A stretch of DNA of 64,000 bases from Truepera sp. (GTDB lineage: Bacteria > Deinococcota > Deinococci > Deinococcales > Trueperaceae), in NCBI GenBank assembly GCA_965218435.1, contig CBDCKW010000005.1:416001-480000 (forward strand). The letters are read 5' to 3'. Below the pieces are notes generated by a model. The model worked only from the letters and a program-made list of their open reading frames with translations. It was not told the origin of the DNA and made no database searches. The position numbers and the translations under genes are program-made. Numbering within the stretch: the stretch's first letter is position 1; each line of letters opens with the position of its first letter. Of the stretch, positions 33,900 through 47,838 are shown piece by piece.

Positions 33900-33990
33900 C
33901 GGTTCAGCCTGCCCGCCCCCGCCCCCCCTGCTGGATCTCCCGTTCGAGAAAGTAGTTGAGCAGCGTCCGCAGGAGCACGATGGCCCCTGA
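33900..33990 (-). pseudogene. DUF1622-like C-terminal fragment
   Basis: AIVLLRTLLNYFLEREI. Confidence 0.5.
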
Positions 33991-34122
33991 GTTACACTGA
34001 TCTGAAAAGCATACCCTCGCATCGCCGTTTGAAGTGATTTCTGGAGCAGTGCCACCTCAATAAAACATCCCTCAGAAAATTTGGTCGGGACGAGAAAACC
34101 GAGTCTGAAACAGTTTAGTCAA

Positions 34123-35849
34123 GATACCGTTGCCGAACTAAGCTGCGAGCCTAGCAAAACGTGAGACACGAGTTTTCGAGCGAGGTTTATAATCAAACCA
34201 GGCTGCTAAGCGTGTCACATTAATGGCCGTAGCTATAGCAACGTTCTGGAACTGCATTTTGGATTGCCCAAAATAGCGGGAGCGCCGCAAGCCAAATGCT
34301 CTAACGCCTTGCGACAAAGTGCCCTCGATACCCGAACGTTTGCTATAAATCGCGTGCCACTCGGATGTTTGTTGGTTGCGTCGGGCCGCTTGGAGTGCTT
34401 CATGCTTCTCTTGCGGTTTGAAAGCGATAGCCCGTGGATCTTTCGTTGAGCGGTGGCAACGCGCACGCTGCTCACACGAAAAACAGTCTGCTTTAGCGAA
34501 CAACATATAGATAAGCTCATTGCCGTTTCGTTTATCAATACGCTCCGACCAGTACACGCTTTTCTTATCGTTGGGACAAGTCACCTGCTCAGTCTCCCAA
34601 TTGATGGCGAAGTCGTTGATACTGTAGGCTCCTTCGGTCTTGGCTTGCCAACGGTGATTCGCGGGCAACGGGCCACACAACGTCACGTCATAGCTTTTCT
34701 GGCTCTCTACTAATAGTTCAGTGTCCATGTAGCCAACATCAACGAGATGCACGTCTGGCAGCAGGTTCCTACTTTCCAAGTTGCGGTGAAGGTCAGGAAT
34801 GGATTGGTTATCGTGGCGACTAGGGGTATCGGTGGCCACATGGGTGATGAGGTGGACAAAGTCTTCCTCACACGTTTCGGTAACATGGACTTTGTAGCCC
34901 TTCCAGCGCAGGTCGCGTTTGCTGCCCAGCCGCGCGTCGGGGTCACAGGGTGAAGCGAGAAGGATGCTGTTCGGAGGCAAGTCTTTAGCTTCGCGCCAGC
35001 GCACCTCACCATCATCGAGCCAAAACTGCTGTACCCACATGCGCCTGAGTATCTCTATGGCCTCTAACTCATCTAGTCTCGTTGATGTTTCGGAAGCGTA
35101 AACCTCCGCTAGCAGGTGAAATCCATCTTCGCCGGTGATCTTGGCAAGCTCGCTAATTTTCTCTTTGCCCTTGGGTAATCTGAAACTTTCAAATCGTTCA
35201 CCATAACGCTCAAACCAGCTGTCGGGAACCCGTGATCTTAGCCACTCCGGTTCGACTGTAGCTAGCGTATTGAGCGCAAGCCGCATCGTTTCAACCAGGT
35301 TGCCGAGCCGATTCAAGCTTCTGACTTTGGACAGTACATGGGTCGAGTCGGTTCTTGCCTGACCACGTTTCTTAATCAATCCTTTCGCCGCACAAGCAGC
35401 GAGAAGTTGGTCCAGCAACCGATGCTCGGCGTTGCCCTGAAGCAGTCGTTTGCGAAACTTGCTGAGTACTGTAAAGTCAAAACCGGAATCGGTGAGTTCT
35501 AGGCCCAGTGCATACTTCCAGTCGATGCGGTTTCTGACAGCATCAGCAGCTTCTCGGTCGGGCAAATCTTCGGCAAATTGCAGCACGGTAACTACTGCTA
35601 AGCGCCAGGGTGCCTCAGCTGCTTGTCCTACAACCGGGTACAAGTCGGCGAACAGCTCATCGTGATAAATGCCCGCTAGCTCATCGCGTAAATTCATCGC
35701 TAAATTGCCTCTGCGATAGATGGCTTTGGCAACGCGGACGGTTTCTTCAGGGACAAACAGCGGGTTGCTGGGCTGAAGCGACATAGTGGCCTCCTAAGTC
35801 GCTTCAGTTTAGATTCGCCAACTTCGCTTTTTGATTCGGCAACGGTATC
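34123..35849 (-). mobile_element. IS1182-family element, copy 1 (1727 bp)
   Basis: Perfect 15-bp IR GATACCGTTGCCGAA; single transposase. Confidence 0.92.
34138..35784 (-). CDS. IS1182-family transposase
   Basis: DSTH, GYKVHVTE, DVGY, Cys cluster, RSGIEGTLSQG. Confidence 0.92.
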   Translation of the reverse strand: MSLQPSNPLFVPEETVRVAKAIYRRGNLAMNLRDELAGIYHDELFADLYPVVGQAAEAPWRLAVVTVLQFAEDLPDREAADAVRNRIDWKYALGLELTDSGFDFTVLSKFRKRLLQGNAEHRLLDQLLAACAAKGLIKKRGQARTDSTHVLSKVRSLNRLGNLVETMRLALNTLATVEPEWLRSRVPDSWFERYGERFESFRLPKGKEKISELAKITGEDGFHLLAEVYASETSTRLDELEAIEILRRMWVQQFWLDDGEVRWREAKDLPPNSILLASPCDPDARLGSKRDLRWKGYKVHVTETCEEDFVHLITHVATDTPSRHDNQSIPDLHRNLESRNLLPDVHLVDVGYMDTELLVESQKSYDVTLCGPLPANHRWQAKTEGAYSINDFAINWETEQVTCPNDKKSVYWSERIDKRNGNELIYMLFAKADCFSCEQRARCHRSTKDPRAIAFKPQEKHEALQAARRNQQTSEWHAIYSKRSGIEGTLSQGVRAFGLRRSRYFGQSKMQFQNVAIATAINVTRLAAWFDYKPRSKTRVSRFARLAA

Positions 35850-35995
35850 TGGGCAATACTGTTTCAGGTGACTTAAGACTTTATCCATAAATTAAGATGA
35901 ACTCTAAGCTAAAAACTGGTGCGAACTGTTGGGCACACCACTGCCGGTAGGACCGGTAAGTCAGATGTGTTAGCAAGAAGTGCTAACATATCAGC

Positions 35996-36208
35996 ATGAC
36001 TGACGAACTCCGCGCTCAAATTAGGCAGTATCTCAGAGATCATGGTCTTACACAAACCGCACTTGCGATGGAAGTCGGTACCGACCGGCACACCATTAAC
36101 CGTGCACTCAGCACCAACGGGGCCGTACCGCCCATCTGGCAGAAGATGCTAGACGCTCTTGGCCTTGAGCTCGTGTTACGCCCTAAGACTGCAAGCAGGA
36201 CGACGTGA
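35996..36208 (+). CDS. Small XRE-type HTH protein
   Basis: GLTQTALAMEVGTDRHTINRAL, LDALGLEL. Confidence 0.75.
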   Translation: MTDELRAQIRQYLRDHGLTQTALAMEVGTDRHTINRALSTNGAVPPIWQKMLDALGLELVLRPKTASRTT

Positions 36209-36242
36209 GGTGTATGGCAGGGGTGCTGCCACAAGGTGAGTT

Positions 36243-36854
36243 ATGGCGTTAATGCGTTATCCTGTTCGGTTTTACGGGGACCCGATTCTCCGCCGCCGCT
36301 CTGCTCCCGTTCGTGACCTTAAGGCTGACTTTGCTGTACCCGGCTTCGAGGCTGTCAGCTTGCCGCAGCTCACACGCAACATGCTCGAGACGATGTACGA
36401 GGCGCACGGTGTTGGTCTCGCCGCGCCGCAGGTCGGGCTACCCCTTCGCCTGTTTGTTGCTGCCGAATATGCCGACGACGAAAACGAGGGCACCACCTCG
36501 CTCAAGAGCCGGGTGTTGCGCGAGTTCGTGATAGTCAATCCGGTGCTCGAGATTCTCGATCCCTATAAAGAGGCGCGCTATGAAGACGGGTGCCTGTCGA
36601 TACCCGGCGTTTACGAGCCGGGGGTCTTGCGGGAGCGAGCACTGCGTATCCACTATTACGACGAGCATGGCGAACAGCATGTCGTCGAAGCGGACGATTA
36701 CCTTGCACGCGTCTTCCACCACGAATACGAACACCTTGATGGCAAGCTGTATCTCGACCAGCTACCGCCGAGTGTGAAGCAAAAACATCGCGTGTATCTC
36801 GCATCATTACAGCGACAAGCTAAGGCGTACCTGAAGCAACTGGCCGAGCGATAA
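36243..36854 (+). CDS. def: Peptide deformylase
   Basis: GVGLAAPQVG, DGCLSIPG, HEYEHLDG. Confidence 0.93.
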   Translation: MALMRYPVRFYGDPILRRRSAPVRDLKADFAVPGFEAVSLPQLTRNMLETMYEAHGVGLAAPQVGLPLRLFVAAEYADDENEGTTSLKSRVLREFVIVNPVLEILDPYKEARYEDGCLSIPGVYEPGVLRERALRIHYYDEHGEQHVVEADDYLARVFHHEYEHLDGKLYLDQLPPSVKQKHRVYLASLQRQAKAYLKQLAER

Positions 36855-36894
36855 CAATCATCGTGCAACGCTAGCCCTGCAACCGAATAGCGAA

Positions 36895-37036
36895 GATACC
36901 GTTGCCGAGCTCCTATGACGGCACTTCACGAGATGAAGGATGAAGCAGGAAAGTCGGCTAGCACGGTCGAATGCGATGCTCGAAATCCTGAATCATATGC
37001 TTTGGGAGATAATAAGCTTAATTCGGCAACGGTATC
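36895..37036. mobile_element. MITE 1 (142 bp) with IS1182 ends
   Basis: 14-bp IR GATACCGTTGCCGA identical to the neighbouring IS1182 IR; no ORF. Confidence 0.88.
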
Positions 37037-37043
37037 TTCGCTA

Positions 37044-37153
37044 GATACTGTTTCCTAATTGCATATAGGCTTGAACTGCTTAACCCCAACTCCCGTGGAT
37101 AAGGGCATTTATACCGTCTGACCAACTATGTATCTGAATTAGGAAACAGTATC
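37044..37153. mobile_element. MITE 2 (110 bp), related IS1182-type ends
   Basis: 17-bp perfect IR GATACTGTTTCCTAATT; 9-bp direct repeat TCTTCGCTA. Confidence 0.88.
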
Positions 37154-37216
37154 TCTTCGCTAGAGTGTTTCAACTTCCCCAAGGCTCAAACCATTTTACA
37201 GCGACCCTGCTAGCAA

Positions 37217-38143
37217 TTATGACAATGCTGGGGCTGGCACCGCCATACCCATAATGAGTTCGTGGTTCAGCATCGCTGCCGCTTTGGTACCACTGGCTGC
37301 TGCCATAATCACTGAATGCATAGGCATAACCATATCGCCCGCCGCATAGACACCAGGTACACTCGTTTGACCCAGATCATTAACAACGACCTGCAAGCCG
37401 TCATCACTCAGCGTACAACCTAGCTGCTGAGGTAAATCCCCTCGCAAACTCAGGGGGGGCCGCATAAAAACAGCCTGACGCGCCAGCTGGTGACCGTTGG
37501 AAAGATACAAGGCACTCAATTTACCCTGCTGACTTTCGTACTCGGTTACGCTGGCCTCAATGACCTTGACGCCACGGGCATGGAGATCGTCGAGCTGCTC
37601 ATCGCTTAAAGTCGTGTTCCCGCCTGTCAGCAAAACGACGTCACGGCTCCAATTTTGAATGAGCCGCACAAATCCATAACCCAGGTCACCATCACCAAGA
37701 ACAGCTAGCGGCGTGTCTCTCACCTCCCAGCCGTGGCAGTAGGGGCAGGTATAAACGCTTTTGCCCCATAGCTCACGTAAACCCGGCACATCAGGTAGGT
37801 CGTCAGATACCCCGGTTGCTAACAGCAAGCGCTCGGCGCTTAGGGATCCCCCCTGAGCTAAGGTAAGGTGAAACTTCCCCTTGCTCCCGGTTACTTTAGA
37901 TACGCGAGTTTTGAGAAAGTGAACTTCATAAGGCGCGAGCTGCTCGCGTCCAATCCGGCGCAGCTCATCGGGCGGCGTGCCATCACGGGTATAGATATTA
38001 TGGGCGTGGCTTGCTGGGGCGTTACGGGGGGTACTGTCATCTATAACGGCGACATTGCGGCGAGAACGTCCTAAAGCGAGTGCTGCGCTTAACCCCGCAT
38101 TGCTCCCGCCAATGACAGCGACTTCTACGTGTGATAAATTCAC
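37217..38143 (-). CDS. Thioredoxin reductase-like NAD(P)/FAD oxidoreductase
   Basis: IGGSNAGLSAA, CPYCHGWE, TSVPGVYAAGD. Confidence 0.92.
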   Translation of the reverse strand: MNLSHVEVAVIGGSNAGLSAALALGRSRRNVAVIDDSTPRNAPASHAHNIYTRDGTPPDELRRIGREQLAPYEVHFLKTRVSKVTGSKGKFHLTLAQGGSLSAERLLLATGVSDDLPDVPGLRELWGKSVYTCPYCHGWEVRDTPLAVLGDGDLGYGFVRLIQNWSRDVVLLTGGNTTLSDEQLDDLHARGVKVIEASVTEYESQQGKLSALYLSNGHQLARQAVFMRPPLSLRGDLPQQLGCTLSDDGLQVVVNDLGQTSVPGVYAAGDMVMPMHSVIMAAASGTKAAAMLNHELIMGMAVPAPALS

Positions 38144-38398
38144 GGCTACTCCTACAAAACAAGCAAAAAGTGACGATAACAAGCCGAAATGACCTGATTT
38201 TGATAAATGCGTAGATTGTTAGGGGAGAAGGTCAGCTAGAGTCTTGCAATTTATAGATGCACCGTGAGCAAGCGCACCTTGCCGTCGGAACGGCGTAGGC
38301 GAGTTTGTTACGAAGCGCATTTGAGAACACGTTCTCACTATAACAAGGTTTCGTGTGCGCGGTGTGTTATGAGGCGATACGCGCAACAAAATAGGAAA

Positions 38399-40125
38399 GA
38401 TACCGTTGCCGAATTAAGCTGCGAGGCTAGCAAAACGTGAGACACGCGTTTTAGAGCAAGGTTTTTGCTCGAACCAATCTCTGAGGCGAGCTGCATTGAT
38501 GGCAGTGGCTACGGCGATGTTCTGAAACTGCGTTTTGGGCTGTCCGACGTAGCGGGAGCGCCGTAAACCGAATGCCCTAACGCCTTGCGACAAGGTGCCT
38601 TCGATGCCCGAGCGCTTGCTGTAGATGGCGCGCCACTCGGGCGTTTGCTGGTTGTGCCGGGCGGCTTGGAGCGCTTCGTGCTTTTTCCTAGGTTTGAAGG
38701 CAACTGAACGGGCCTGCTTCGTCACGCGGTGGCAACGTGCCCGCTGCTCGCAGACCAAACAGTCGTTTTGGGCGAACAGCACGACAATCAAGTCGTTGTC
38801 GTTGCGCTTATCTTTGCGTTCCGACCAATACACGCTTTTCTTGTTGCTAGGGCAGGTTACGTATTTGGCATCCCAATCGATGGCGAAGTCGTCGATGTTG
38901 TAAGCCCCCGCAGGTTTAGCCTGCCAACGGTGATTGGCGGGTAAGGAACCATGCAACTTCACGTCAAAGCGTTTCTGACTTTCCACTAACAGTTCGGTGT
39001 CCATATAGCCTGTATCCACAAGATGTACGGCTGGCAGAATGTTCTTACTTTTCAAGCCGCGGTGGATATTGGGAACGAGCTGGTTGTCGTGACGGTTCGG
39101 TTGACTGGTCGCTACATGAGTTATGAGGTGAACGGCGTCTTCTTCACACGTTTCCGTGACGTGTACTTTGTGGCCCGTCCAGCGCAGGTCGCGTTTGCTA
39201 CCTAAGCGCACGTCGGGGTCATAAGGTGAAACGAGAAGCACACGGTTCGGGGGCAAGTTCTTGGCGTCGTGCCAGCGCACCTCGCCGTCGTCGAGCCAGT
39301 ACTGCTGCACCCACATGCGCCTGAGGAGTTCGACAGCCTCCAGCTCGGCTAGGTTGGACGGCGCATCGGAAGCGTAAACGCGCTCTAGCAAGTAAAACCC
39401 GTCCTCACCCGTGATCCCAGCAAGGTCGCTAATTTTCTCTTTCCCCTTGGGTAATCTGAAACTTTCAAATCGTTCACCATAACGCTCGAACCAAGTCTCG
39501 GGAACCCATGCGCTAAGCCACTTCGGTTCGCGGGTAGCCAGCGTGTTGAGAACGAGCCGCATCGTTTCAACCAGGTTGCCGAGCCGGTTCAAGCTTCTGA
39601 CTTTGGCGAGCACGTGGGTCGAGTCGGTTCTGGCTTGACCGCGCTTTTTGATCAACCCCTTCGCAGTGCAGGCCGCTAAAAGTTCGTTCAGCAGTCGGTA
39701 TTCGGCCTGACCTTCAAGGAGCCGTTTGCGAAACTTGCTCAGAACCGTAAAATCAAAGCCTGAATCGATAAGCTCTAGGCCCAGCGCATACTTCCAGTCG
39801 ATACGATTTCTGACCGCATCGGCAGCTTCCCGGTCGGGCAGGTCTTCGGCAAATTGCAGCACAGTCACTAACGCAAGCCGCCAGGGTGCTTCAGCCGCTT
39901 GTCCCACAACCGGGTATAGGTCGGCGAATAACTCGTCACGGTAAACGCCCGCTAGCTCATCGCGTAAATGAATTGCCAAATTACCTCTGCGATAAATAGC
40001 TTTAGCAACACGGGCGGTTTCTTCAGGGACAAACAGCGGGTTACTCGGTTGAAGCGACATAGTGGCCTCCTAAGTCGCTTCAGTTTAGACTTGCCAACTT
40101 GGTTTTTTGATTCGGCAACGGTATC
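38399..40125 (-). mobile_element. IS1182-family element, copy 2 (1727 bp, diverged isoform)
   Basis: Same IR and length as copy 1. Confidence 0.92.
38414..40060 (-). CDS. IS1182-family transposase
   Basis: 548 aa paralog of 34138-35784. Confidence 0.92.
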   Translation of the reverse strand: MSLQPSNPLFVPEETARVAKAIYRRGNLAIHLRDELAGVYRDELFADLYPVVGQAAEAPWRLALVTVLQFAEDLPDREAADAVRNRIDWKYALGLELIDSGFDFTVLSKFRKRLLEGQAEYRLLNELLAACTAKGLIKKRGQARTDSTHVLAKVRSLNRLGNLVETMRLVLNTLATREPKWLSAWVPETWFERYGERFESFRLPKGKEKISDLAGITGEDGFYLLERVYASDAPSNLAELEAVELLRRMWVQQYWLDDGEVRWHDAKNLPPNRVLLVSPYDPDVRLGSKRDLRWTGHKVHVTETCEEDAVHLITHVATSQPNRHDNQLVPNIHRGLKSKNILPAVHLVDTGYMDTELLVESQKRFDVKLHGSLPANHRWQAKPAGAYNIDDFAIDWDAKYVTCPSNKKSVYWSERKDKRNDNDLIVVLFAQNDCLVCEQRARCHRVTKQARSVAFKPRKKHEALQAARHNQQTPEWRAIYSKRSGIEGTLSQGVRAFGLRRSRYVGQPKTQFQNIAVATAINAARLRDWFEQKPCSKTRVSRFASLAA

Positions 40126-40169
40126 TAGCGAAGAGTGTTTCAGAGGTGAACCGAACAGCCCGAGCCGGG

Positions 40170-40300
40170 CGGGGTCAGTTGACCGTGACCGAGCAGGAAA
40201 GGCACGAGGTCAATGTGGATTTCGTCGAGCAGGCCAGCGTCGAGACATTGCTGCACGATAGTCGTACTGGCGACCGCGACGTTCTTGCTACCCAAAACCG
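40170..40300 (-). pseudogene. RibD_C/DHFR-like fragment
   Basis: KNVAVASTTIVQQCLDAGLLDEIHIDLVPFLLG. Confidence 0.75.
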
Positions 40301-40377
40301 TGGCCGGGCTGCCCTTCGTTGCCTTGCCTGCTTGATGCTCACCCGCTTCTTTACCTCCTGAAAGTGCAGAACACGGT

Positions 40378-40941
40378 TCAAGCGCTGTAAGGCGGTTGCC
40401 CCGCGGGGCGATATTCCAGCAGCAGGACGCGCCCGTCCAGAACCTTGGTCGAGAGCAGGTCGAAGCCGATGTCGGGCAACTCTTTGAAAAAGGGCTCCAC
40501 CCCTGTTTGCGGGAGAATCAGGGGGCAGACGACGAGCTTAAGACGATCTACCAGGCCAGCGGTAAGCAGTTGCTGAACCAGCGACACGCTGCCCAGGGTC
40601 CGCAACTCGGGGCCGACTCTACGCTTCAGTTCACCTACAAAGCCCACCAGGTCATCATGGACGATTTTTAGCTCCGGCCAATCTGTTGTCTCCAGAGTGT
40701 GCGAGAACAACCAGCCTGGCGTTGTGCTCATCGTTTCCCATCCTTCGTCCCGCAACTCGGTAGGTAGGCCGTTTAGCATCTCGTAGGTCTTACGTCCGAC
40801 GAGCATTCGGTGGGGAACGGCCGTATTTGTCTTAATCCAGTCGTCAAAATCGGGGCCAGAATAGCCGTAATAACCCGGAGACCGCTGGCCCCTGGCATAG
40901 CCGTCGAGCGTGACGATCAGTTCACAAACAAGCTCGGTCAC
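40378..40941 (-). CDS. Dihydrofolate reductase-like (RibD_C) protein
   Basis: VTLDGY, GRKTYE, GSVSLVQQL, GLVDRL. Confidence 0.88.
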   Translation of the reverse strand: MTELVCELIVTLDGYARGQRSPGYYGYSGPDFDDWIKTNTAVPHRMLVGRKTYEMLNGLPTELRDEGWETMSTTPGWLFSHTLETTDWPELKIVHDDLVGFVGELKRRVGPELRTLGSVSLVQQLLTAGLVDRLKLVVCPLILPQTGVEPFFKELPDIGFDLLSTKVLDGRVLLLEYRPAGQPPYSA

Positions 40942-41039
40942 GTGCTACCTCCAATTGAATTTCGGCGATCATAAAAACAGCTTAAAATCCTAAGCGCTCA
41001 AATTCGCAACAGTCTAGCCACGCGTGTTTCAGTGAATAC

Positions 41040-41258
41040 TTACCTCTTGTCGTTCTGCTCCTGGTAGTAGCCAACGAGAGCGTTCGCATGTCCATGTCCG
41101 ATGTTGTGTTCTTTTTTAAGGGCGCTCACCATTTCCAAGTGCTTTTTCCCCTTCATCTCACCTAAGATTTTCAGCCAGTGGTCGATGGGCTGACCGTAGG
41201 TCTTTTCGATAGACGGAAAGTAAGAGGCCGGGCCTTTTACCTTAGGTGTGTCGGTCAT
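41040..41258 (-). CDS. DUF4287 family protein
   Basis: KGPASYFPSIEKTYG, GHGHANALV. Confidence 0.88.
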   Translation of the reverse strand: MTDTPKVKGPASYFPSIEKTYGQPIDHWLKILGEMKGKKHLEMVSALKKEHNIGHGHANALVGYYQEQNDKR

Positions 41259-41347
41259 TGAAGCTACCTCCTGAAAATCATTGCAACAATAACTCTTGGT
41301 TAACGCACGCTTGCTGACAGCATTCAAATCAGTCAGAAGGTGACAGG

Positions 41348-41833
41348 CTATGCCAAACTTTTAACCAGTTCAACGAGCTGGTCGAGGCACAGCCCCCATC
41401 CTTCAAAAAAGCCCATGTCCTCGTGCTGCTGCCGTCCCGCTGGGTCTTTGTGTTTAGCAATAGCCGTGTACTTGGTTCCTGTCGCTGTAGGCTCGAGCGT
41501 TACGATGGCGGTAAAAAAAGGTTGTTCGCTCGGTCTATAGCCTGGAGCGAGCGCGTTGGTAAAGACCAGCTTCTCGTTGGGAACAATCTCCAAGTAGCAT
41601 CCCATGTTGGGAAACGCTTGCCCTTCAGGTGACTGCATAACGGTGTAGAACTGACCGCCCGGTTGCAGGTCGATCTCGCACTCGGAAATCGTCCAGGGAG
41701 CTGGGGCAAACCACTTTTTGATGTGTTCGGGCTGTGTCCAAGCTCGCCAGACAAGCTCAGCGGGCACGTCGATCTCACGCTCTAAAACGAGATCGAGGGT
41801 GGGGTCAATGTCAACATACAGTGGTTTACTCAT
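41348..41833 (-). CDS. SRPBCC/AHSA1 family protein
   Basis: [25 protein letters not shown]. Confidence 0.9.
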
Positions 41834-42167
41834 GACTTTCCTCCTTGACGAGTTCTTTGACGTAGCTGTCGAACTGATCGAGCCTTTTTTCCCACAGTCC
41901 AAGCTGCACCTTCAGCCACTGCTCGGCGCTTTCAACTTGTTCGGGTACAAGATGAAACGTCCGTATCCGGCCTACTTTTTCTGAGCGAACCAGTCGGCCC
42001 CTTTCTAGTACCTGAAGGTGCTGCATAAACGAAGGTAGTGCCATCTCAAACGGCTCGGCCAGCTCGGTTACTGAGGCAGGGCCACGACTAAGCCGCTCTA
42101 AGACTTGCCGCCGGGTCGGGTCGGCAAGGGCCTGAAAAGTCTGGTCGAGGTTCTGATAGTTAGGCAC
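41826..42167 (-). CDS. ArsR/SmtB family regulator
   Basis: [17 protein letters not shown]. Confidence 0.92.
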
Positions 42168-42192
42168 TTGCCTAAGCGTACATCAAAAGGAC

Positions 42193-42210
42193 ACTTAGGT
42201 CAATACCTAA
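42193..42210. promoter_or_regulatory. Palindromic ArsR-type operator
   Basis: CTTAGGT-caat-ACCTAAG just upstream of the ArsR gene. Confidence 0.65.
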
Positions 42211-42318
42211 GCGTTGGCTCAGGCTTAATCAGCTCGTGTGCTTAATGAAAAAATCTTCTGCCGATAACCCAACCGCTATGCTGCTTTAGATCATGCTCTG
42301 CGGCTGTTTTTAACGCTG

Positions 42319-42756
42319 TCATGATTGGGTAGATAGATCCGAAACAAAACGGAGCTGTACCTCATCGGCTTCACTCAAACCCGACTGCTCAAAGGCTTCT
42401 TGCAGCGTGTCGTAGCGAGCGACGTAACTAACCTGGCCGTTCTCAACCCGGTAATGAGAGGCGAGCTTAGCTTGGCTCACGATGTCACCGGTCATCACGT
42501 CACCGGTGGTTAGGTCGCGCCAGACGCCGAGTTGTTCATTGACCACCGTTTTACCTCGAGCGAAACTACGACGCGTTTCTAGGCTCAACCCTGCTTGAGC
42601 AAGCCAGTCTCTAAGCATGTCGCGTCCGAAGGCGGAGCCGCGCGGCCCGACCAGCTCTATCTCAGGGTGCGAAAGGTCGAGTAGGCGCTCTACCTCAGCT
42701 GTGTTGACGGTTTCTTCCCAAATACGGACAATCTCAGCAGCTTCTTGAAGTTTCAT
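42319..42756 (-). CDS. SnoaL/NTF2-like protein
   Basis: WEETVN, IELVGPRG, VARYDTL. Confidence 0.75.
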   Translation of the reverse strand: MKLQEAAEIVRIWEETVNTAEVERLLDLSHPEIELVGPRGSAFGRDMLRDWLAQAGLSLETRRSFARGKTVVNEQLGVWRDLTTGDVMTGDIVSQAKLASHYRVENGQVSYVARYDTLQEAFEQSGLSEADEVQLRFVSDLSTQS

Positions 42757-42795
42757 CGTTTCTCCAGTCTTTGACTTGTCTCAATAACAAGCTTA

Positions 42796-42816
42796 ATGTA
42801 TGTATAGCACATACAT
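42796..42816. promoter_or_regulatory. Palindromic MarR-type operator
   Basis: ATGTATGT-atagc-ACATACAT between divergent genes. Confidence 0.65.
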
Positions 42817-42852
42817 ATTTGTTTTGCACGTACTTGATGATATCATTGAACT

Positions 42853-43365
42853 GTGAACTCAGAAAAAGTTGTCCAGTTACCCGACAATGCGTTGCCAAGT
42901 GACGCCGGAAAAGCGCTGTTCCGGTTGGGGAGATTCCTCAATAAGCAGTCCTTACCCGAATCGCTAAAAACTCGAACCGCAGGGGGGATAGAGCTTTCAC
43001 AGATTTTGACGGTTCAAGCTGTTGAAGCGGTTCTCGAGACCGGTCAAGAGGCAACTGTGGGCGCGGTCGCGCTGAACCTTGGTCTCGAGCCCTCAACCGC
43101 CAGCCGTATAGTCGCGGAAGCTGTACAGCATGGCCTGTTAACCCGTGGTGCGTCTCAAGCTGACGGACGGCGCAGCCTACTTGAACTCACGCAGGCAGGG
43201 CGGAGCTTGGCAGAAGATGCCGCTGACTATCAGCGGTCGGTCTTCGAGTCGGTTACAGATAGTTGGGCAGCTGAGGAACGTAAAGAGTTCGCACGCCTGT
43301 TCGTCATGTTTGTCGAAAGATTAGCTAGTTTGCCCACAAGTGAAGGTATACAAGAAGCAAAATAG
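42853..43365 (+). CDS. MarR family regulator
   Basis: LEPSTASRIV, DGRRSLLELT. Confidence 0.9.
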   Translation: MNSEKVVQLPDNALPSDAGKALFRLGRFLNKQSLPESLKTRTAGGIELSQILTVQAVEAVLETGQEATVGAVALNLGLEPSTASRIVAEAVQHGLLTRGASQADGRRSLLELTQAGRSLAEDAADYQRSVFESVTDSWAAEERKEFARLFVMFVERLASLPTSEGIQEAK

Positions 43366-43520
43366 CGAAGCGTGTTACAGCCCAAACGGGTTATCGAGTT
43401 AGCTGCTCTTTATGCGCGCCATGTCGTCGGGGTTCGTGACCAAGGCGAGCCGTTACCACCGCTTTGGTCCCAACCCAGAACCAGACTTCAGCAGCGATTT
43501 CCATCTGGCGCGTCGTGAGC

Positions 43521-44054
43521 TTAAGCAGGCAGGTAGGTCAACCTGAGCACATCCTCGCCAATCCGATCATGAGCCACAAGGCGGAGCGGCGGCCGGGGTC
43601 CGGCAAAATAGGGCTTGCCGTGACCTAGCACGACCGGGTGCAGGTAGATTCGGTACTCATCGATCAGACCAAGGTCAGTGAGGTTTTGCGCCAAGTTCGG
43701 GCCAGCGACTTCGATCTCCCCGTCGCGCTCAGCCTTCAGCTCGCGGATCGTGCCCTCGAGATCAGCCTTAACAAGTCTGGCGTTGGGGCCGACCGACGTG
43801 AGCGAGCGTGAGACGACCCATTTCGGCTGGTTTCGCCACGCCGCTGCGAAGGCGTGTTCCGCTGCGTCCCATTCAGGCTGATCGTCATCCCAGTAACGCA
43901 TGAGCTCATACACATTGCGACCGTAGACACTGCCCACCTGCCTCTGAGCCTCTTCGATGAAGTGGCGGAAGAGCAGAGGGCTTGGCACGGGCAACGCCGT
44001 ATGATCGACGTAGCCGTCCAATGATTGATTCATCCCGAACACGAGCTTAGCCAT
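43521..44054 (-). CDS. Dihydrofolate reductase-like (RibD_C) protein
   Basis: MNQSLDGYVD, GLIDEYRIYLHPVVLG. Confidence 0.9.
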   Translation of the reverse strand: MAKLVFGMNQSLDGYVDHTALPVPSPLLFRHFIEEAQRQVGSVYGRNVYELMRYWDDDQPEWDAAEHAFAAAWRNQPKWVVSRSLTSVGPNARLVKADLEGTIRELKAERDGEIEVAGPNLAQNLTDLGLIDEYRIYLHPVVLGHGKPYFAGPRPPLRLVAHDRIGEDVLRLTYLPA

Positions 44055-44247
44055 TGCCTGTACCCAATAAGGTTTTCATATGTGGGTTACCTCCCAAGGT
44101 CAAACCTAGCAAGATTACGACTGCGCTGCTTCTTGAATCTTGCGCGTTTAAGGAACTCGCTTGTTTATCTTGTTCGTCAAGCGGTTGGCTAGCACGCCTG
44201 TGAATGAGAGTAGAGAAGAAACACTCTTCGCTAGAGTGTTTCTTCTC

Positions 44248-45129
44248 TCATGACAGGTAACGAACGATACGTTCACACCGAGCAGGGTCACAAGTGAGAC
44301 CGACACTTAGCCCCCACAGCCAGTAGTCCACGCAGCGAACGTAGGTCCATAAACGCGTCAGCTCGTCACCTAGCTCCGCAGCTTCAACCAACGTTCGGAA
44401 ATGCGTCTCGAAACCACCTTGCGCTTCGATATCCTCCAAGCGACACCAGAAAAGCTGGGCGACCCCAAATTCAGGCTTACCCACCACAACTTTCGGATCG
44501 ACAACTAGCCACGGTTCGCGCTCGCTTGCAAGGGTATCAAGGTAATGAAGGTCGTAGTTCACCAGCAGGGTACCCGTGCTATCAGCCAGCTGAGCGGTAA
44601 GCTCACAGGTGTGGTCAAGAACTTGTCTGGGCAGAGCTTGACCGTATTTTGCCCAACGCTGCGGCATCATCTCGAGGGCTTCTTGCCCCCACTCCCAAGT
44701 CGTCATGACGCCAACCGGAGCAGGAACGGCTAGGCGGCGCAGTAATTGACCTGCTACGGGTATGGCCTCTTTAATGAGAATGTCGTTGAGAGAACGTTTG
44801 AAGTCCAACCGCTCTAATACCATCGCGCCGTGTTGTGGCGAGGTTTCCAGTAACCGAACAGCTCCCCGACCGCCCCAGATGGCGAGTGCGAGAGATTCGG
44901 TGCGAGTAGAGCCGTCCAGCCAAGAGACTTTGAGAACGCACGCTTCCTCTCCTCTCTGGACCGGAAAAGCTAAACTTAGACCACCGTGCATCACGGGACC
45001 ATCAACCCGCAAATCCCACTGCCGACACAGCATCTCAACAAGGGCCGGTAAGTGGTCGAGCCATGCCTGGCCCGCTACGCCCTCACGAGCTACCGTATCG
45101 GCAGCAAAGCGTCTGGGAACTACAATCAT
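44248..45129 (-). CDS. Aminoglycoside/hydroxyurea phosphotransferase (APH(6)-like)
   Basis: AWLDHLP, VLERLD, NYDLHYLD, WLVVDPK. Confidence 0.85.
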   Translation of the reverse strand: MIVVPRRFAADTVAREGVAGQAWLDHLPALVEMLCRQWDLRVDGPVMHGGLSLAFPVQRGEEACVLKVSWLDGSTRTESLALAIWGGRGAVRLLETSPQHGAMVLERLDFKRSLNDILIKEAIPVAGQLLRRLAVPAPVGVMTTWEWGQEALEMMPQRWAKYGQALPRQVLDHTCELTAQLADSTGTLLVNYDLHYLDTLASEREPWLVVDPKVVVGKPEFGVAQLFWCRLEDIEAQGGFETHFRTLVEAAELGDELTRLWTYVRCVDYWLWGLSVGLTCDPARCERIVRYLS

Positions 45130-45216
45130 AGAGGTACTTTACAGCATCGATTTGCGTGTGCTCAGTAGAAATCTGAAATGGAATAGCGAAGAGTGTTTCA
45201 ACTTGTCTTCAGATGT

Positions 45217-45663
45217 TCAGTTATCTTCAAACCAGTCTTCAAGTGCTTTCCACTCGTTCTCTCTGACGGGAAAGTTCGTTCCTCTTGCCTGGGCAAAGAT
45301 CGAGAGATTCCATAAGTCGGGGTCACACTGCAAAAAATCGCGGTAGAGCGGCTTCTCGACGATGACCTTTTCATATTTTACTTTGACACGCGGATGGACT
45401 CTGAGACCGTCGTTAGGATCTGTCCAGTAGCTTCGTCCCTGCACGGAATCCGGGCGCACAACGGGATCGGTCGTGACAATTCCTAAAGCGTAGACGCCTG
45501 CCTTTTTACCGGAGATCCAGATCAGCACTCTATCGCCCATTTTGATTTTTGCATGGTGCTGTTTGCAGTTCCAGAACTCCTCGGCTTCTACGGCTAAAGA
45601 GGTGTGGATGTCGTAGAGGTTCGGATTTGCCTGAAATATCCAGGTAGCTTGGCTGCTCGTCAT
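45217..45663 (-). CDS. EVE domain protein
   Basis: WIFQANP, GDRVLIWISG, GTNFPV. Confidence 0.8.
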   Translation of the reverse strand: MTSSQATWIFQANPNLYDIHTSLAVEAEEFWNCKQHHAKIKMGDRVLIWISGKKAGVYALGIVTTDPVVRPDSVQGRSYWTDPNDGLRVHPRVKVKYEKVIVEKPLYRDFLQCDPDLWNLSIFAQARGTNFPVRENEWKALEDWFEDN

Positions 45664-46628
45664 GCTTGGTTTTCCTCTGGTAAAGCATCGAGGGAGGTTA
45701 ATTCTCGTCCGTCTACGGCGATGTACCTCGGGTAAGGAGGCAAGACGTCGCGTCCGTAGAAGTGGGGTATTTCCGAAGGGTTAACGGTGCGGCCTTGCCA
45801 AGGCAGGGGTGGGGCGTACATGATGGCCGCTTCACGCTCAACGCATAAGAGTGACGACATCAGGGTAGCGTCGTCGTCTAGGTGATAGCGGTGCAACTGT
45901 GGGAGTTGTGTGGTGACACCCAAACCGTGATTGATAAGGAAGGTCTGGGTTGCCAACATTGACGCCCTCGTCCATAGACGTTCGTGGTCGGTGGGGAGCA
46001 AGATGTACCCTGCCGACCGCACACTGTTTGTAAGTTCGCACCCTCGTGTGATGAAGAGGCGTGCGCTCGCACCCGAATTGCTGGCTCCGTAGGATGGGTT
46101 GGTATAAAACGCGTCGAAGGTACCGATAAGTTCTTTTGGAGGCGGATCGAACACGTTATAAAGCCTGCCTGCAAACCACTCTGAGAAATGATGCCCTTCG
46201 GCGAATGTCCTGGCGACCTCGAGGAGACAGTCGTCAAAATCGAGTAGCGCCATCTGTGCTGGACCCCTAAGTAGGCCGTGGCTACTGAGTAGACCCAGGA
46301 GTAGACTGGTTCCGTCATGATCGCCGACAAACACGACGCGCTTGCCCGCCAGATGCGGCGCAATCAGCTTGACCTGACATAAGAGGTCGCTTCCGCGCAT
46401 CGGAATCTGATCGAAGTCCCTTAGCGACTCCGGGCGGGCATCTTCCCAAAGTGCGAGCAGCTGCTCCTCTTCGGGCGTGACTTGCCGATAAACAGCGTTC
46501 TTCAGAAGACTGCCGAGTGCTGCGTAAGCGCCCGTTCCTCCTGCTACCGTTACGTCTGAGGATGACGATATATGAGCAGGCATCCTAGGATGCCTGCTCA
46601 TATTAAGTCCTTGGTCGGGCGACCTCAT
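45660..46628 (-). CDS. BpsA-like (DUF43) SAM/dcSAM-dependent transferase
   Basis: LRDFDQ, VFVGDHDGTS, LDFD, YNVFDPPP, FYTNPSY, LFITRG. Confidence 0.75.
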   Translation of the reverse strand: MRSPDQGLNMSRHPRMPAHISSSSDVTVAGGTGAYAALGSLLKNAVYRQVTPEEEQLLALWEDARPESLRDFDQIPMRGSDLLCQVKLIAPHLAGKRVVFVGDHDGTSLLLGLLSSHGLLRGPAQMALLDFDDCLLEVARTFAEGHHFSEWFAGRLYNVFDPPPKELIGTFDAFYTNPSYGASNSGASARLFITRGCELTNSVRSAGYILLPTDHERLWTRASMLATQTFLINHGLGVTTQLPQLHRYHLDDDATLMSSLLCVEREAAIMYAPPLPWQGRTVNPSEIPHFYGRDVLPPYPRYIAVDGRELTSLDALPEENQA

Positions 46629-47206
46629 GCGGCCGCCTCCAGATCGTCACCCTGCTGGTAGTGATCCCAGAGATTGAGCGTTTTGATCCGCATCTCGACG
46701 AGCTCGACACTGGCCCCGTACTTGCCAGCGATGTGCGCGGCACTGTCACCTCGGTAAACCGCTTTGGCGACCTCTTTTGAAGGAAGTAGAGCGGCAGCAG
46801 CCGTAAACTTGGCTTCTTGCTCTTCTTCCTGATAGTAGGCGGCGCGTCCGCTGGAGCCGATGCTCACAGGGGTATGTCCGTGGTAGTGATGTGCAACCTC
46901 TTCGAGAAGTGTAACGCGGGCACGCTCAGGCGTCTGTTGACGGTTTAGCACTACAAAGAGTTTCCCTATAGGCAGTTCGTGGCTCATCCCAGACCACTCT
47001 TTGGCGTCTAAACGGTCCAACTCCGCCAGAACCTCTTCAGATAAGTTAGGAATCTCGTCGTGATATTTCAACACGACGCCTAGCTCGGCTTGCAAAGTTA
47101 AGGGGTCAAAAGGCTCATAGGATCCGACGCCTGCTTTTGCCCTAAGTGACCTGGCGCTCTCCTCGTAGTGATGCATGATGTCTTTAGTCAGTTGGGGCTT
47201 GGGCAC
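46625..47206 (-). CDS. ImmA/IrrE family metallopeptidase (EExxH variant)
   Basis: RARVTLLEEVAHHYHGH, EQEA...AAAALLP, IAGKYGAS. Confidence 0.85.
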   Translation of the reverse strand: MPKPQLTKDIMHHYEESARSLRAKAGVGSYEPFDPLTLQAELGVVLKYHDEIPNLSEEVLAELDRLDAKEWSGMSHELPIGKLFVVLNRQQTPERARVTLLEEVAHHYHGHTPVSIGSSGRAAYYQEEEQEAKFTAAAALLPSKEVAKAVYRGDSAAHIAGKYGASVELVEMRIKTLNLWDHYQQGDDLEAAA

Positions 47207-47223
47207 GTCATCTCCTTATCTCC

Positions 47224-47838
47224 TTAAGCAGTTTCTTCGTTCGCAGCGGCTTCATAAGCAAACTGGAACATCTGTGCAAGATTTTTAGCGGCTTTGGGGC
47301 TTAGTTTGGGATCAGCACGCAAGAAGGCAGATACCTGATGCGGCACATTCGTGGGCGGAACCATCTCTGCTAAATCCTGAGCAGTCTCTACACCACGAAG
47401 CTCTCTATGCAGATTGACCCCAAAATGCTCTTCCATCTGAAACGAGATGCCCATAGCCTCGAGGATGCGTTGTGCCCGCTCGACAGTCACGCCGTGGTAC
47501 TCATTGCGCTCGTCACGTGATACTTGCGCGTCGGATACGCCAAGCTCTTGGGCAAGTTCTTTTTGACTCCAACCTCGGGCAATACGTGCGCCGATCAGCC
47601 ACCGACCCACGCTTTCTAAGCTCTCGAGCGTCCCAAGGTCGCCCCGCTTCATGTTCTCGTAAGCCAAGACCTCCTCCTCGAGCTGGGCTCGAAACGAAAG
47701 TAAAGGATGCAGGGCGCGCTCGAGCGCGTCACCCGTCAGGCCAGCCTCTACAAGTTGGTTTCTTTGAGCCTCCAGCTGTATTTTTCCTTCCTCGAGCTGT
47801 TTGAGCATTCTTTGGTATTCGCTTTCGGTGCGGATCAT
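47224..47838 (-). CDS. XRE family HTH regulator
   Basis: ARIARGWSQKELAQELGVSDAQVSRDE. Confidence 0.88.
   Translation of the reverse strand: MIRTESEYQRMLKQLEEGKIQLEAQRNQLVEAGLTGDALERALHPLLSFRAQLEEEVLAYENMKRGDLGTLESLESVGRWLIGARIARGWSQKELAQELGVSDAQVSRDERNEYHGVTVERAQRILEAMGISFQMEEHFGVNLHRELRGVETAQDLAEMVPPTNVPHQVSAFLRADPKLSPKAAKNLAQMFQFAYEAAANEETA

What the first reader, a model, noticed from the sequence alone, without database searches (positions are those of the whole stretch)
34106..45200. Integron-like array of gene modules separated by a palindromic site with a 7-bp core
Seen: a site of form arm7-N3-core7-N3-arm7 sits at successive module boundaries. Intact copies: cgcaaca gtc TAGCCAC gcg tgtttca (41005); agaagca aaa TAGCGAA gcg tgttaca (43353); agaaaca ctc TTCGCTA gag tgtttct (44217); tgaaatg gaa TAGCGAA gag tgtttca (45174). 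Three more are split by IS/MITEs (34106/35866, 36878/37172, 38382/40142). The core is asymmetric and occurs in both orientations (TTCGCTA is the reverse complement of TAGCGAA). Right arms are conserved and left arms degenerate. Genes abut the sites: the MarR stop codon is the TAG of a core, and the APH, DUF4287 and EVE stops lie 4, 8 and 16 nt from an arm. Cargo is HTH+def, TrxB-like, DHFR-like, ArsR/SRPBCC/SnoaL/MarR, DHFR-like, APH, then the EVE operon. Known: inverted arms around a 6-8 bp asymmetric spacer is the layout of tyrosine-recombinase sites, but this sequence is not attC, dif/pdif or parS. Inference: a cassette capture and shuffling system, driven by a recombinase outside the window or by the IS1182 transposase.
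Basis: partly seen in the sequence, partly recalled or inferred. Interest (0 to 1): 0.9.

Follow-up and report, generated by a model that had tools for sequence, protein, structure and literature searches.

The report
Gene modules joined by a palindromic site
A short, rare palindromic DNA site marks the joints between small accessory gene modules on this bacterium's second replicon, relatives carry different modules at the same joints, and one family of jumping genes inserts exactly into the site's centre, so it looks like a new gene-shuffling system whose enzyme is still unidentified.

Summary
A roughly 27-bp site, consensus CTGAAACACTC-TAGCGAA-GAGTGTTTCAG, occurs seven times in window 34106-45200. 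It is otherwise almost absent from the 4.8-Mb genome: I found three more full sites and a few half sites, all beside IS ends or on accessory DNA.

It is not a genome-wide repeat, a terminator or a plausible operator. Every site lies between gene modules.

Three sequence comparisons put homology breakpoints at the 7-bp core:
- the RibD_C paralog
- metagenome locus L150 against site S8
- metagenome locus L156 against site S7, where another module replaces the APH gene

Assembled contigs from the sample's sequencing runs hint at a variant without the APH module.

Six of the ten full sites in this genome hold IS1182-family IS or MITE copies, inserted exactly in the core with the 7 bp on both sides. 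Three of these are perfect 7-bp duplications. Twelve of 19 exact IS or MITE ends abut the arm motif, against a background of 0.003.

No recombinase lies within about 40 kb, and the replicon's canonical dif-like site is unrelated.

The enzyme is unresolved:
- IS1182 transposase acting on IR-like junction sites: about 0.45
- a trans-acting tyrosine recombinase: about 0.3
- a passive IS hot spot: about 0.2

The parts
34105..34122 (.). S1 left half: arm CTGAAACAG, then TT, then 7-mer TAGTCAA
   Evidence: abuts the IS1 tip at 34123
34123..35849 (-). IS1, an IS1182-family insertion sequence (transposase 34138-35784, 548 aa), ends GATACCGTTGCCGAA
   Evidence: DDE_Tnp_1_6, DUF772, DDE_Tnp_1; homologs in plasmid records are annotated as IS1182 family
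35850..35867 (.). S1 right half: 7-mer TGGGCAA, then TAC, then arm TGTTTCAG
   Evidence: 8 of 10 match to the arm motif
35996..36854 (+). Module: HTH protein plus peptide deformylase
36877..36894 (.). S2 left half: CTGCAACCGAA plus core TAGCGAA
36895..37036 (.). MITE-A, 142 bp with IS1/IS2-type ends; its flanking 7-mers are inverted (TAGCGAA / TTCGCTA)
   Evidence: 71% similar to a MITE at C7:11302-11460
37044..37153 (.). MITE-B, 110 bp, ends GATACTGTTTCCTAATT (the end type of the G005 IS); flanked by direct TTCGCTA repeats
   Evidence: a second MITE with the same 17-19-nt ends lies at C5:543266-543374 with a perfect TSD
37154..37172 (.). S2 right half: TC, core TTCGCTA, GAG, arm TGTTTCA
37217..38182 (-). 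Module: thioredoxin-reductase-like flavoprotein
38380..38398 (.). S3 left half: CGCGCAACAAAA plus 7-mer TAGGAAA
38399..40125 (-). IS2, a second IS1182-family IS, 79% identical to IS1 (transposase 38414-40060)
40126..40143 (.). S3 right half: TAGCGAA GAG TGTTTCAG (consensus)
40175..40941 (-). Module: RibD_C / DHFR-like gene 1. The main ORF is 40378-40941; a 68-aa ORF at 40175-40381 abuts its 3' end with no Pfam match
41005..41032 (.). S4, intact site: CGCAACA GTC TAGCCAC GCG TGTTTCAG
41040..43365 (.). Module: DUF4287, AHSA1/SRPBCC, ArsR, SnoaL (all on -) and MarR (+). The MarR stop codon is the TAG of the S5 core
   Evidence: G003 keeps DUF4287-AHSA1-ArsR together without any site
43353..43380 (.). 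S5, intact site: AGAAGCA AAA TAGCGAA GCG TGTTACAG
   Evidence: Homology to the paralog at C5:518072 starts at base 43363, the first base of the core
43521..44054 (-). Module: RibD_C / DHFR-like gene 2
44213..44247 (.). S6, intact site with 14-bp perfect arms: GAGAAGAAACACTC TTCGCTA GAGTGTTTCTTCTC. Its core is inverted relative to its neighbours
44248..45129 (-). Module: APH(6)-like kinase
   Evidence: Replaced by an unrelated 975-bp module in L156. A contig joint 44223->45182 in run X3 suggests a variant without it
45174..45200 (.). S7, intact site: TGAAATG GAA TAGCGAA GAG TGTTTCA
   Evidence: Homology to L156 starts at 45185
45217..48380 (-). Module: EVE, BpsA_C-like, M78 peptidase, HTH and DUF6932 genes
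   Evidence: 83% identical to L156:1117-4358

Best explanation
The sites are the joints of a mosaic of small accessory gene modules, and the module set differs between relatives exactly at these joints.

Most likely the joints belong to the biology of the resident IS1182-family DDE transposons. Each site has the layout 'IR-like arm, 7 bp, IR-like arm'. That is the layout of two transposon ends abutted across one target duplication.

The transposase family present here makes 7-bp duplications. Its IS and MITE copies insert precisely into the 7-bp spacer and duplicate it. Repeated insertion into the spacer next to an existing end stacks units (IS, MITEs and arm-bounded gene modules) head to tail. 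Transposase action and recombination between copies sitting in different sites then swap, lose or replace modules at the cores.

Shown:
- the site family exists and is rare
- IS and MITE copies insert into the core with 7-bp duplication
- breakpoints fall at the cores

Inferred:
- the arms act as surrogate ends or binding sites
- the transposase, rather than another enzyme, moves IS-free modules
For: (1) Occupancy. Six of the ten full sites in G000 hold IS1182-type elements exactly in the core: S1, S2, S3, S8 at C5:517915-518088, S9 at C7:11300 and S10 at C5:543249-543391.

(2) Perfect 7-bp direct repeats inside the arms occur at S10 (TCGGCGA), around MITE-B in S2 (TTCGCTA) and at G005 copy A (TTACACA).

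(3) A 7-bp TSD is a property of this IS clade even away from such sites: L055 AACTTTT, L124 AGATACT, L111 AGAATTG.

(4) Twelve of 19 exact IS/MITE ends in G000, G005 and L156 have at least 7 of 10 matches to GAGTGTTTCA at offset 7. The background for random genomic 10-mers is 0.0032.

(5) At least three diverged element lineages use the site: IS1, IS2 (79% identical to IS1), and the G005 IS (67%) with MITE-B.

(6) The arms share TGTTTC with the IS ends. TACTGTTTCAG at S1 matches TACTGTTTCCG of the G005-type end at 10 of 11 positions, though with a 2-nt offset from the tip (my reading).

(7) A low-depth contig in run X3 joins one IS end to another IS end across 7 bp (40128->34122 with AAT between, depth 6). 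End-7 bp-end junctions therefore form in this sample.

(8) Most of the other contig joints shown lie at IS or MITE tips: 38398, 37154, 40131.

(9) Literature: IS1272, an IS1182-family member, targets inverted-repeat structures, and a loop-duplication pathway has been modelled (PMC4923244, passages; PMC5678879, abstract, section 22 and discussion passages).
Against: - The asymmetric core TAGCGAA and one arm are conserved in IS-free sites across genomes (G002, G008 and eight metagenome loci). Yet the IS tolerates other cores (TTACACA, TCAGTAA, TAGGTTA). A transposon that moves does not carry its flanking duplication, so core conservation fits conservative site-specific recombination better.
- One conserved arm plus one degenerate arm is the pattern of Rci sfx sites (PMC4176322, figure legend).
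- The left arms of S3, S5 and S7 are poor inverted repeats, so the modules lack two good ends.
- The arm-to-IS-end similarity is short and offset by 2 nt.
- Several IS and MITE copies do not have matching 7-mers: IS1 5 of 7, IS2 5 of 7, MITE-A inverted, G005 copies B and C unrelated.
- G002 has at least five sites but no transposase hit, although it is only 91% complete and in 380 contigs.
- The 2.9-kb island in G002 did not insert at a site. The empty loci in G000, G004 and G005 have none.
- No movement of an IS-free module by any enzyme has been seen.
Confidence: 0.45

Rival explanations
1. The site is the substrate of a conservative site-specific (tyrosine) recombinase encoded elsewhere. 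Modules are cassettes exchanged at the 7-bp overlap region. The IS1182 elements are parasites that home to the dyad centre of the site, as ISAjo2-like IS home to pdif sites.
For: - The layout is 10-7-10 with an asymmetric core conserved across genomes, one conserved arm and one degenerate arm. The same pattern is described for sfx sites of the Rci shufflon (PMC4176322, figure legend).
- Breakpoints lie at the core.
- Site pairs in direct orientation flank modules in G002.
- A perfect site lies 95 bp from a 197-aa tyrosine recombinase in L139, and S9 lies 650 bp from a recombinase fragment on C7.
- There is precedent for module systems without an adjacent recombinase and for IS that target the module sites (PMC10132070 and PMC6449649, abstracts).
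Against: - No recombinase lies in the 64-kb window or within about 40 kb of the array.
- The L139 enzyme has no homolog in G000 above 25% identity.
- Only 1 of the 7 metagenome site loci whose ORFs within about 4.5 kb of the site were scanned had a recombinase.
- The cores of S6 and S2R are inverted relative to their neighbours.
- The replicon's canonical dif-like site (C5:157149, TTAACATAA-ACCGCT-TTATGTTAA) is unrelated, so host Xer is unlikely.
- Of the four go-back joints shown in table 5c of the laid contigs, none links the two ends of an IS-free module. Contigs drop rare forms, and some joints were not shown.
Confidence: 0.3
2. The site has no machinery of its own. It is a relic palindrome that happens to be the preferred target of these IS. 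The breakpoints arise from ordinary homologous recombination between IS or MITE copies sitting in different sites, followed by IS loss, and from transfer of multi-module fragments.
For: - IS-family targeting of palindromes is known (PMC4923244, passages).
- The G002 island carries its sites internally and did not insert at a site.
- Mismatched flanking 7-mers around IS1, IS2 and G005 copies B and C are what flank swapping would give.
Against: - It does not explain why an 18-nt core-plus-arm sequence is kept at joints between unrelated modules in several genomes and metagenomes.
- It does not explain how the number of sites grows.
- Three perfect TSDs show recent insertions into sites that already existed.
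Confidence: 0.2
3. The site is a transcription terminator or the operator of one of the local regulators (MarR, ArsR, HTH).
For: - Sites sit 0-45 nt after stop codons.
- S4, S6 and S7 also lie upstream of the next gene.
Against: - None of the 9 terminator-like calls in 33500-46000 is at a site, and that count is below the shuffle mean of 13.4.
- S4, S5 and S7 fold no better than shuffles.
- S2 and S5 lie between convergent genes.
- In L150 the site lies between divergent genes.
- Homologous operons in G003 and G002 lack the site.
Confidence: 0.03

Closest known systems
dif modules bounded by pdif sites in Acinetobacter plasmids, and the ISAjo2-like (IS1202 family) IS that target them (PMC10132070, PMC6449649, PMC13141974: abstracts seen)
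   Same: - Small accessory modules (toxin-antitoxin, resistance-like and regulator genes) are each bounded by a short arm-spacer-arm site.
- There is no adjacent dedicated recombinase.
- Modules are shuffled between relatives.
- A family of IS homes to the sites.
   Different: - The site sequence and geometry differ: 10-7-10 here against 11-6-11.
- The site is unrelated to the canonical dif-like site on the same replicon.
- Sites are mostly in direct orientation rather than alternating (alternation is recalled for pdif).
- The IS inserts in the spacer centre with a 7-bp duplication.
- The host is a different lineage, related to sequences in a hot-spring metagenome.
IS1272 / TnSha1 (IS1182 family) targeting of hairpins (PMC4923244 passages; PMC5678879 abstract, section 22, discussion passages)
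   Same: - Same IS family by Pfam domains.
- Insertion into inverted-repeat targets.
- The paper's model includes a pathway in which the loop alone is duplicated.
- TnSha1 uses a degenerate extra IR to carry a passenger gene.
   Different: - IS1272 deletes the stem-loop and leaves no duplication, and its targets share no sequence.
- Here both arms are kept, exactly 7 bp are duplicated, and the targets share a conserved sequence.
R64 shufflon sfx sites and the Rci recombinase (PMC4176322 figure legend; PMC11852207 abstract)
   Same: Sites share a central spacer and one conserved arm, while the other arm is barely conserved. One site lies between successive DNA segments.
   Different: - Shufflon segments are alternative 3' ends of one gene (recalled).
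- sfx sites alternate in orientation and only invert (PMC4176322 legend).
- An rci gene adjoins the array (recalled).
- None of these holds here.
Integron cassette arrays and CALINs (attC clusters without an integrase)
   Same: An array of single-gene or few-gene units, each followed by a short imperfect palindrome. The cargo is of adaptive or defence type.
   Different: - No intI.
- The site is 27 bp and lacks the attC R'/R'' consensus (recalled).
- Orientations are mixed and the modules have their own regulators.
- No Rfam match at all in 33500-46500. Rfam was not checked to hold an attC model, so this is weak evidence.

Membership tests
Integron / CALIN | intI tyrosine integrase beside the array (integron), or attC sites of 57-141 bp with R''/L''-L'/R' and GTTRRRY (consensus recalled) | tested here: not met
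   No PF00589 hit in the 81 ORFs of the window scanned, and none within about 40 kb genome-wide. The site is 27 bp, and its arm TGTTTCA does not fit the recalled GTTRRRY.
Integron / CALIN | Co-oriented, mostly promoterless cassettes | tested here: not met
   Genes lie on both strands, and the modules include their own regulators (ArsR, MarR, HTH).
pdif / dif modules (Xer-dependent) | The site resembles the host dif site (XerC arm, 6-bp spacer, XerD arm) | tested here: not met
   A canonical dif-like site, TTAACATAA-ACCGCT-TTATGTTAA, lies at C5:157149. The module site shares neither its arms nor its spacer length. No good copy of the module site lies at the GC-skew extremes of C9.
pdif / dif modules (Xer-dependent) | Accessory modules are bounded by the sites and shuffled between replicons | tested here: met
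   Breakpoints at cores: S5 against C5:518072, L150 against S8, and L156 against S7. Site pairs flank modules in G002.
IS1182-family insertion sequence (for IS1 and IS2) | DDE transposase with DUF772 plus DDE_Tnp_1_6, terminal inverted repeats, target duplication | tested here: met
   Pfam domains. 15-bp perfect IRs. 7-bp TSDs in the clade. Homologs are annotated as IS1182 family.
IS1182-family palindrome targeting | Insertion into inverted-repeat targets | tested here: met
   Twelve of 19 exact ends abut the arm motif against a background of 0.0032. Unlike IS1272, the target is kept and its centre is duplicated.
Cargo-bearing non-autonomous IS derivative (MIC / transporter-IS kind) for the gene modules | Both module ends are IRs recognisable by the transposase, and each unit has its own target duplication | tested here: inconclusive
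   The right arms are conserved and share TGTTTC with the IS ends, offset by 2 nt. The left arms are weak (S3, S5, S7). The flanking cores are alike but shared with neighbours, and S6 and S2R are inverted.
Cargo-bearing non-autonomous IS derivative (MIC / transporter-IS kind) for the gene modules | Mobilisation in trans by the transposase | not testable with these tools
   Needs a transposition assay.
Shufflon (Rci / sfx) | Shared spacer plus one conserved arm, the other arm not conserved | tested here: met
   The core plus right arm is conserved while the left arm is variable. The comparison is to the legend in PMC4176322.
Shufflon (Rci / sfx) | Alternating inverted sites, an adjacent rci gene, segments that are alternative gene ends | tested here: not met
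   Sites are mostly direct, there is no recombinase nearby, and the modules are whole genes.
REP / BIME repeats | High copy number across the genome | tested here: not met
   Seven PWM hits score 24.9 or more, all at the listed sites. At a score of 14 or more there are 63 hits against 52 in the reversed-genome control. The PWM was built from these same sites.
Intrinsic terminator | Stable GC-rich hairpin followed by a U tract | tested here: not met
   No site is called terminator-like. Only S6 folds strongly, and it has no T run.

The most novel reading that the evidence does not exclude
This is a previously undescribed gene-module exchange system. A 10-7-10 junction site is carried by every module, and modules are captured, lost and replaced at its 7-bp core. 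Two routes remain open. One is a DDE (IS1182-type) transposase using arm-7-arm junctions as reactive sites, which would be a transposase-driven counterpart of integron or pdif cassette arrays. The other is an unknown trans-acting recombinase, with a dedicated IS lineage parasitising its site.
Probability: 0.4. Interest if true: 0.8.

Novelty: new variant of a known kind. Interest (0 to 1): 0.62.

Why it matters
Short sites that let bacteria swap ready-made gene modules drive the spread of resistance and defence genes. Integron attC and Acinetobacter pdif are the known examples.

Here a third, unrelated site does the same bookkeeping in an environmental bacterium related to sequences in a hot-spring metagenome. 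The cargo includes aminoglycoside-kinase-like, DHFR-like, toxin-antitoxin and defence genes.

If a DDE transposase runs it, that would be a new way to build cassette arrays. If a recombinase runs it, there is an unrecognised recombinase-site pair plus an IS lineage that homes to it.

Either way the site is a simple, searchable marker for module boundaries in this clade. It also turns the question of how such mosaics form into a testable problem with a defined 27-bp substrate.

Tried and rejected
- **Genome-wide repeat:** rejected. Arm-only palindromes with a 13-nt spacer number 12, against 3-12 for other spacings.
- **Terminator or operator:** rejected (gene orientations).
- **Rfam:** 0 matches in 33500-46500 at E up to 1.
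- **Recombinase hunt:**
  - PF00589 gave 23 hits in G000, the nearest to the array being fragments at C5:502987 and C5:378492.
  - PF00239 gave 2 hits, at C5:523735 and C9:871873.
  - The L139 small recombinase has no G000 homolog above 25% identity.
- **dif link:**
  - The E. coli-type consensus with up to 8 mismatches found nothing.
  - A degenerate pattern found a canonical dif-like site at C5:157149 that is unlike the module site.
  - Two weak PWM hits near the C9 skew extremes (1427934 and 3370165) are within chance; about 1 is expected.
- **Plasmid database:** no close relative of the array or the IS; best IS identity 72%.
- **Genome collection, transposase query:** only relatives at 59% amino-acid identity or less.
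- **Viral contigs:** 4 hits, none with a left arm.
- **Metagenome scan:** 113 hits, 80 fetched. Most have no arm; the 33 not fetched were not examined.
- **Empty-site search for the three G005 IS copies in G000:** none found.
- **An IS with ends like the arms:** none among the 29 family-level and collection IS copies examined (14, 15).
- **Earlier notes of this scan:** nothing relevant.
- **Tool problems:** one search failed on a seed-length limit and was not repeated. One search timed out and was rerun.
- **Read-laying:** only contigs were available, so the absence of circular one-site modules is uninformative. The joints 35866->43523 (likely the S8 paralog laid on the window), 37154->40131, 37083->38398 and 40090->37018 could not be reconstructed into a haplotype.

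Full report
**Setting.** The window is G000:C5:416001-480000. C5 is a 685-kb replicon beside a 3.9-Mb chromosome, C9. Pfam on 81 ORFs (21, 60) shows a mosaic of small detoxification, regulator and toxin-antitoxin genes with IS3, IS630, IS5-like and IS1182 elements. There is no tyrosine or serine recombinase in the 64 kb. Same-genus genomes share only scattered pieces of the window, so the whole region is accessory DNA.

**The observation.**
- All seven sites are at the stated coordinates.
- The core-plus-arm 17-mer matches 5 times in the window against 0.14 expected, and 0 of 100 shuffles reach 5.
- The gene calls and stop-codon distances are right.
- In the whole genome a PWM built from the sites gives 7 hits scoring 24.9 or more, all at listed sites. 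At 14 or more there are 63 hits against 52 in a reversed-genome control. The site is therefore rare, not a REP-like repeat.
- Further full sites in G000 are S8 (C5:517915-518088), S9 (C7:11300) and S10 (C5:543249-543391). Degenerate or half sites lie at C7:9953, C5:95582, C5:237367 and C9:2464783, the last three beside IS-end remnants.
- Only S6 is a strong hairpin. S4, S5 and S7 fold no better than shuffles, and no site is terminator-like.
- The conserved unit is TAGCGAA-GAG-TGTTTCAG. The left arm is weaker.

**IS and MITE copies sit in the core.**
- IS1 and IS2 are IS1182-family elements (annotation of homologs). They are only 79% identical to each other.
- IS1, IS2, MITE-A, MITE-B, the S8 and S9 MITEs and the S10 MITE all lie between the arms, with a 7-mer on each side.
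- Perfect 7-bp direct repeats occur at S10 (TCGGCGA), around MITE-B (TTCGCTA) and at copy A of a 67%-identical IS in sister genome G005 (TGAAAAACTC TTACACA [IS] TTACACA GAGCGTTTCC). These prove insertion into the spacer of a site that was already there.
- Related IS in the family and in cyanobacterial or Chloroflexi records also make perfect 7-bp duplications, mostly without such arms.
- Twelve of 19 exact IS/MITE ends have at least 7 of 10 matches to GAGTGTTTCA at offset 7, against a background of 0.0032.
- Against a simple picture: IS1 and IS2 have 5 of 7 matching 7-mers, S8 has 6 of 7, MITE-A has inverted 7-mers, and G005 copies B and C share the 13 nt next to one end but have unrelated 7-mers on the other side.
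- Targeting of inverted repeats by IS1272, a member of the same family, is published. There the target is deleted, not duplicated (PMC4923244 passages; PMC5678879 abstract, section 22 and discussion).

**The sites are module joints.**
1. The RibD_C-2 module has an 86%-identical paralog at C5:518072-518752. The homology starts at the first base of the core in both copies, while the left neighbours differ.
2. Metagenome locus L150 is 85% identical to the SDR side of S8 up to the core. It then continues into an Ada-like gene instead of RibD_C, and its site is empty of the MITE.
3. Locus L156 is 83% identical to the EVE operon from base 45185, inside the S7 core. To the left it has an unrelated 975-bp module, then a consensus half site abutting an IS end, where G000 has the APH gene.
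4. In run X3 a contig joins 44223 to 45182 with one extra A, at depth 39 against about 305 for the main contig. This gives a well-formed hybrid site, AGAAACA AAA TAGCGAA GAG TGTTTCA, without the APH module. A 12%-divergent contig of similar depth suggests a co-occurring relative. Side lengths were not shown and only contigs were laid, so this is a hint.
5. In G002 two pairs of same-oriented sites about 2.4 kb apart flank modules: small ORFs plus an Imm5-like gene, and EamA plus a MocR-type regulator.
6. Locus L143 has three sites flanking an AAA_33 kinase fragment and an APH gene. On C7 two sites flank an APH-like gene.

There is evidence against mobility at the site itself. The 2.9-kb G002 island containing two sites is bounded 100 and 335 bp outside them, and the empty loci in G000, G004 and G005 have no site. 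Upstream of RibD_C-2, homology to the paralog and to G002 ends at the start codon, about 160 bp short of S6. Homologous operons in G003 and G002 lack the site, which shows the site is not part of the cargo genes.

**Distribution.**
- With up to 1 mismatch, 14 of 61 related genomes (including G000) match the 17-mer. Of the 20 hits outside G000, 5 have a recognisable left arm or an adjacent IS end, in G002, G005 and G008. The reversed-pattern control gives 7 hits.
- Across five same-genus genomes there are 17 hits against 8 control hits.
- In JGI metagenomes there are 113 exact hits, of which 80 were fetched. Real sites occur in eight loci, mostly from one assembly series.
- The cargo there is again toxin-antitoxin, defence, kinase, restriction-modification and redox genes.

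**Which enzyme?**
- *For the transposase.* It is the only enzyme family shown to act at the sites. The spacer length equals its duplication length. The arms share TGTTTC with its ends. A low-depth contig shows IS end-7 bp-IS end. Most of the other joints shown are at IS or MITE tips.
- *For a recombinase.* The asymmetric core and one arm are conserved in IS-free sites across genomes, a pattern described for sfx sites (PMC4176322 legend). The IS tolerates other cores. IS that home to module-boundary recombination sites are known (PMC10132070 abstract).
- *Against a recombinase.* None lies within about 40 kb. Only 1 of the 7 metagenome site loci scanned has one nearby, and G000 lacks its homolog. 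The canonical dif-like site at C5:157149 is unrelated.

I rank the transposase-linked model first (0.45), a trans-acting tyrosine recombinase second (0.3), a passive hot spot third (0.2) and an operator or terminator last (0.03).

**Comparison and novelty.** The system works most like pdif module arrays with their site-homing IS. It fails the defining tests for pdif, integron and shufflon membership. My full-text searches on IS1182 target sites returned only the IS1272 work. I cannot say more widely that it is not in print. I file it as a new variant of a known kind.

Noticed in passing
window 34122/40128 (run X3): A low-depth contig (depth 6 against about 500) joins the IS2-type right end to the IS1-type left end across 7 bp (TAG+AAT+A). 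This looks like a transposon-circle or tandem-IS junction, possibly of the 6-kb IS1...IS2 composite. The spacer matches neither flank.
   Followed up: partly
window 37018-40182 (runs X2 and X3): Several contig joints at roughly a third to a half of the main depth (40090->37018 with 16 extra nt, 37154->40131, 37083->38398 on opposite strands, an insertion at 40181/40182). They point to a second arrangement of the MITE / TrxR / IS2 segment in the same sample. I could not reconstruct it.
   Followed up: partly
G000 C5:157149-157172: A canonical dif-like palindrome, TTAACATAA-ACCGCT-TTATGTTAA, lies between tyrosine recombinase genes at C5:152983 and C5:160397. It is probably the replicon's dimer-resolution site.
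   Followed up: no
G000 C7:1-12337 (L250): This small contig is another accessory mosaic. It carries a streptomycin adenylyltransferase-like gene, two APH-family genes, an Xre/RES toxin-antitoxin pair, SnoaL plus an MmyB-like regulator, two of the sites, a MITE, and a tyrosine recombinase cut by the contig end.
   Followed up: partly
G005 C8 (L041, L043): Two 100%-identical IS copies at different loci share the same 13 nt (ACACTCTAGCCGA) outside one end but have unrelated sequence outside the other. A simple target duplication does not explain this.
   Followed up: partly
G000 C5:337518-339268 (L129): A third IS1182-family IS, 43% identical at the amino-acid level, with ends GATACCGCTGGTTTAC and no arm motif in its flanks. 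Its transposase gene contains a chance-level PWM hit (score 22).
   Followed up: no
window 55635-61550: A 1971-aa ORF with NACHT/AAA domains, preceded by PIN-domain toxin-antitoxin genes. It is probably a defence-type STAND NTPase.
   Followed up: no
window 40175-40941: A 68-aa ORF (40175-40381, no Pfam match) abuts the 3' end of RibD_C gene 1 (40378-40941). The gene may be frameshifted or truncated next to S3.
   Followed up: no
L139:90-3835 (metagenome): A perfect site lies between an AAA ATPase plus subtilase pair and a 197-aa tyrosine recombinase that has only the catalytic domain.
   Followed up: partly
window 36006-36758 (runs X2 and X3): A second 753-bp contig with 93 differences covers the deformylase gene at about a tenth of the main depth. 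The sequenced sample seems to hold a related second strain.
   Followed up: no
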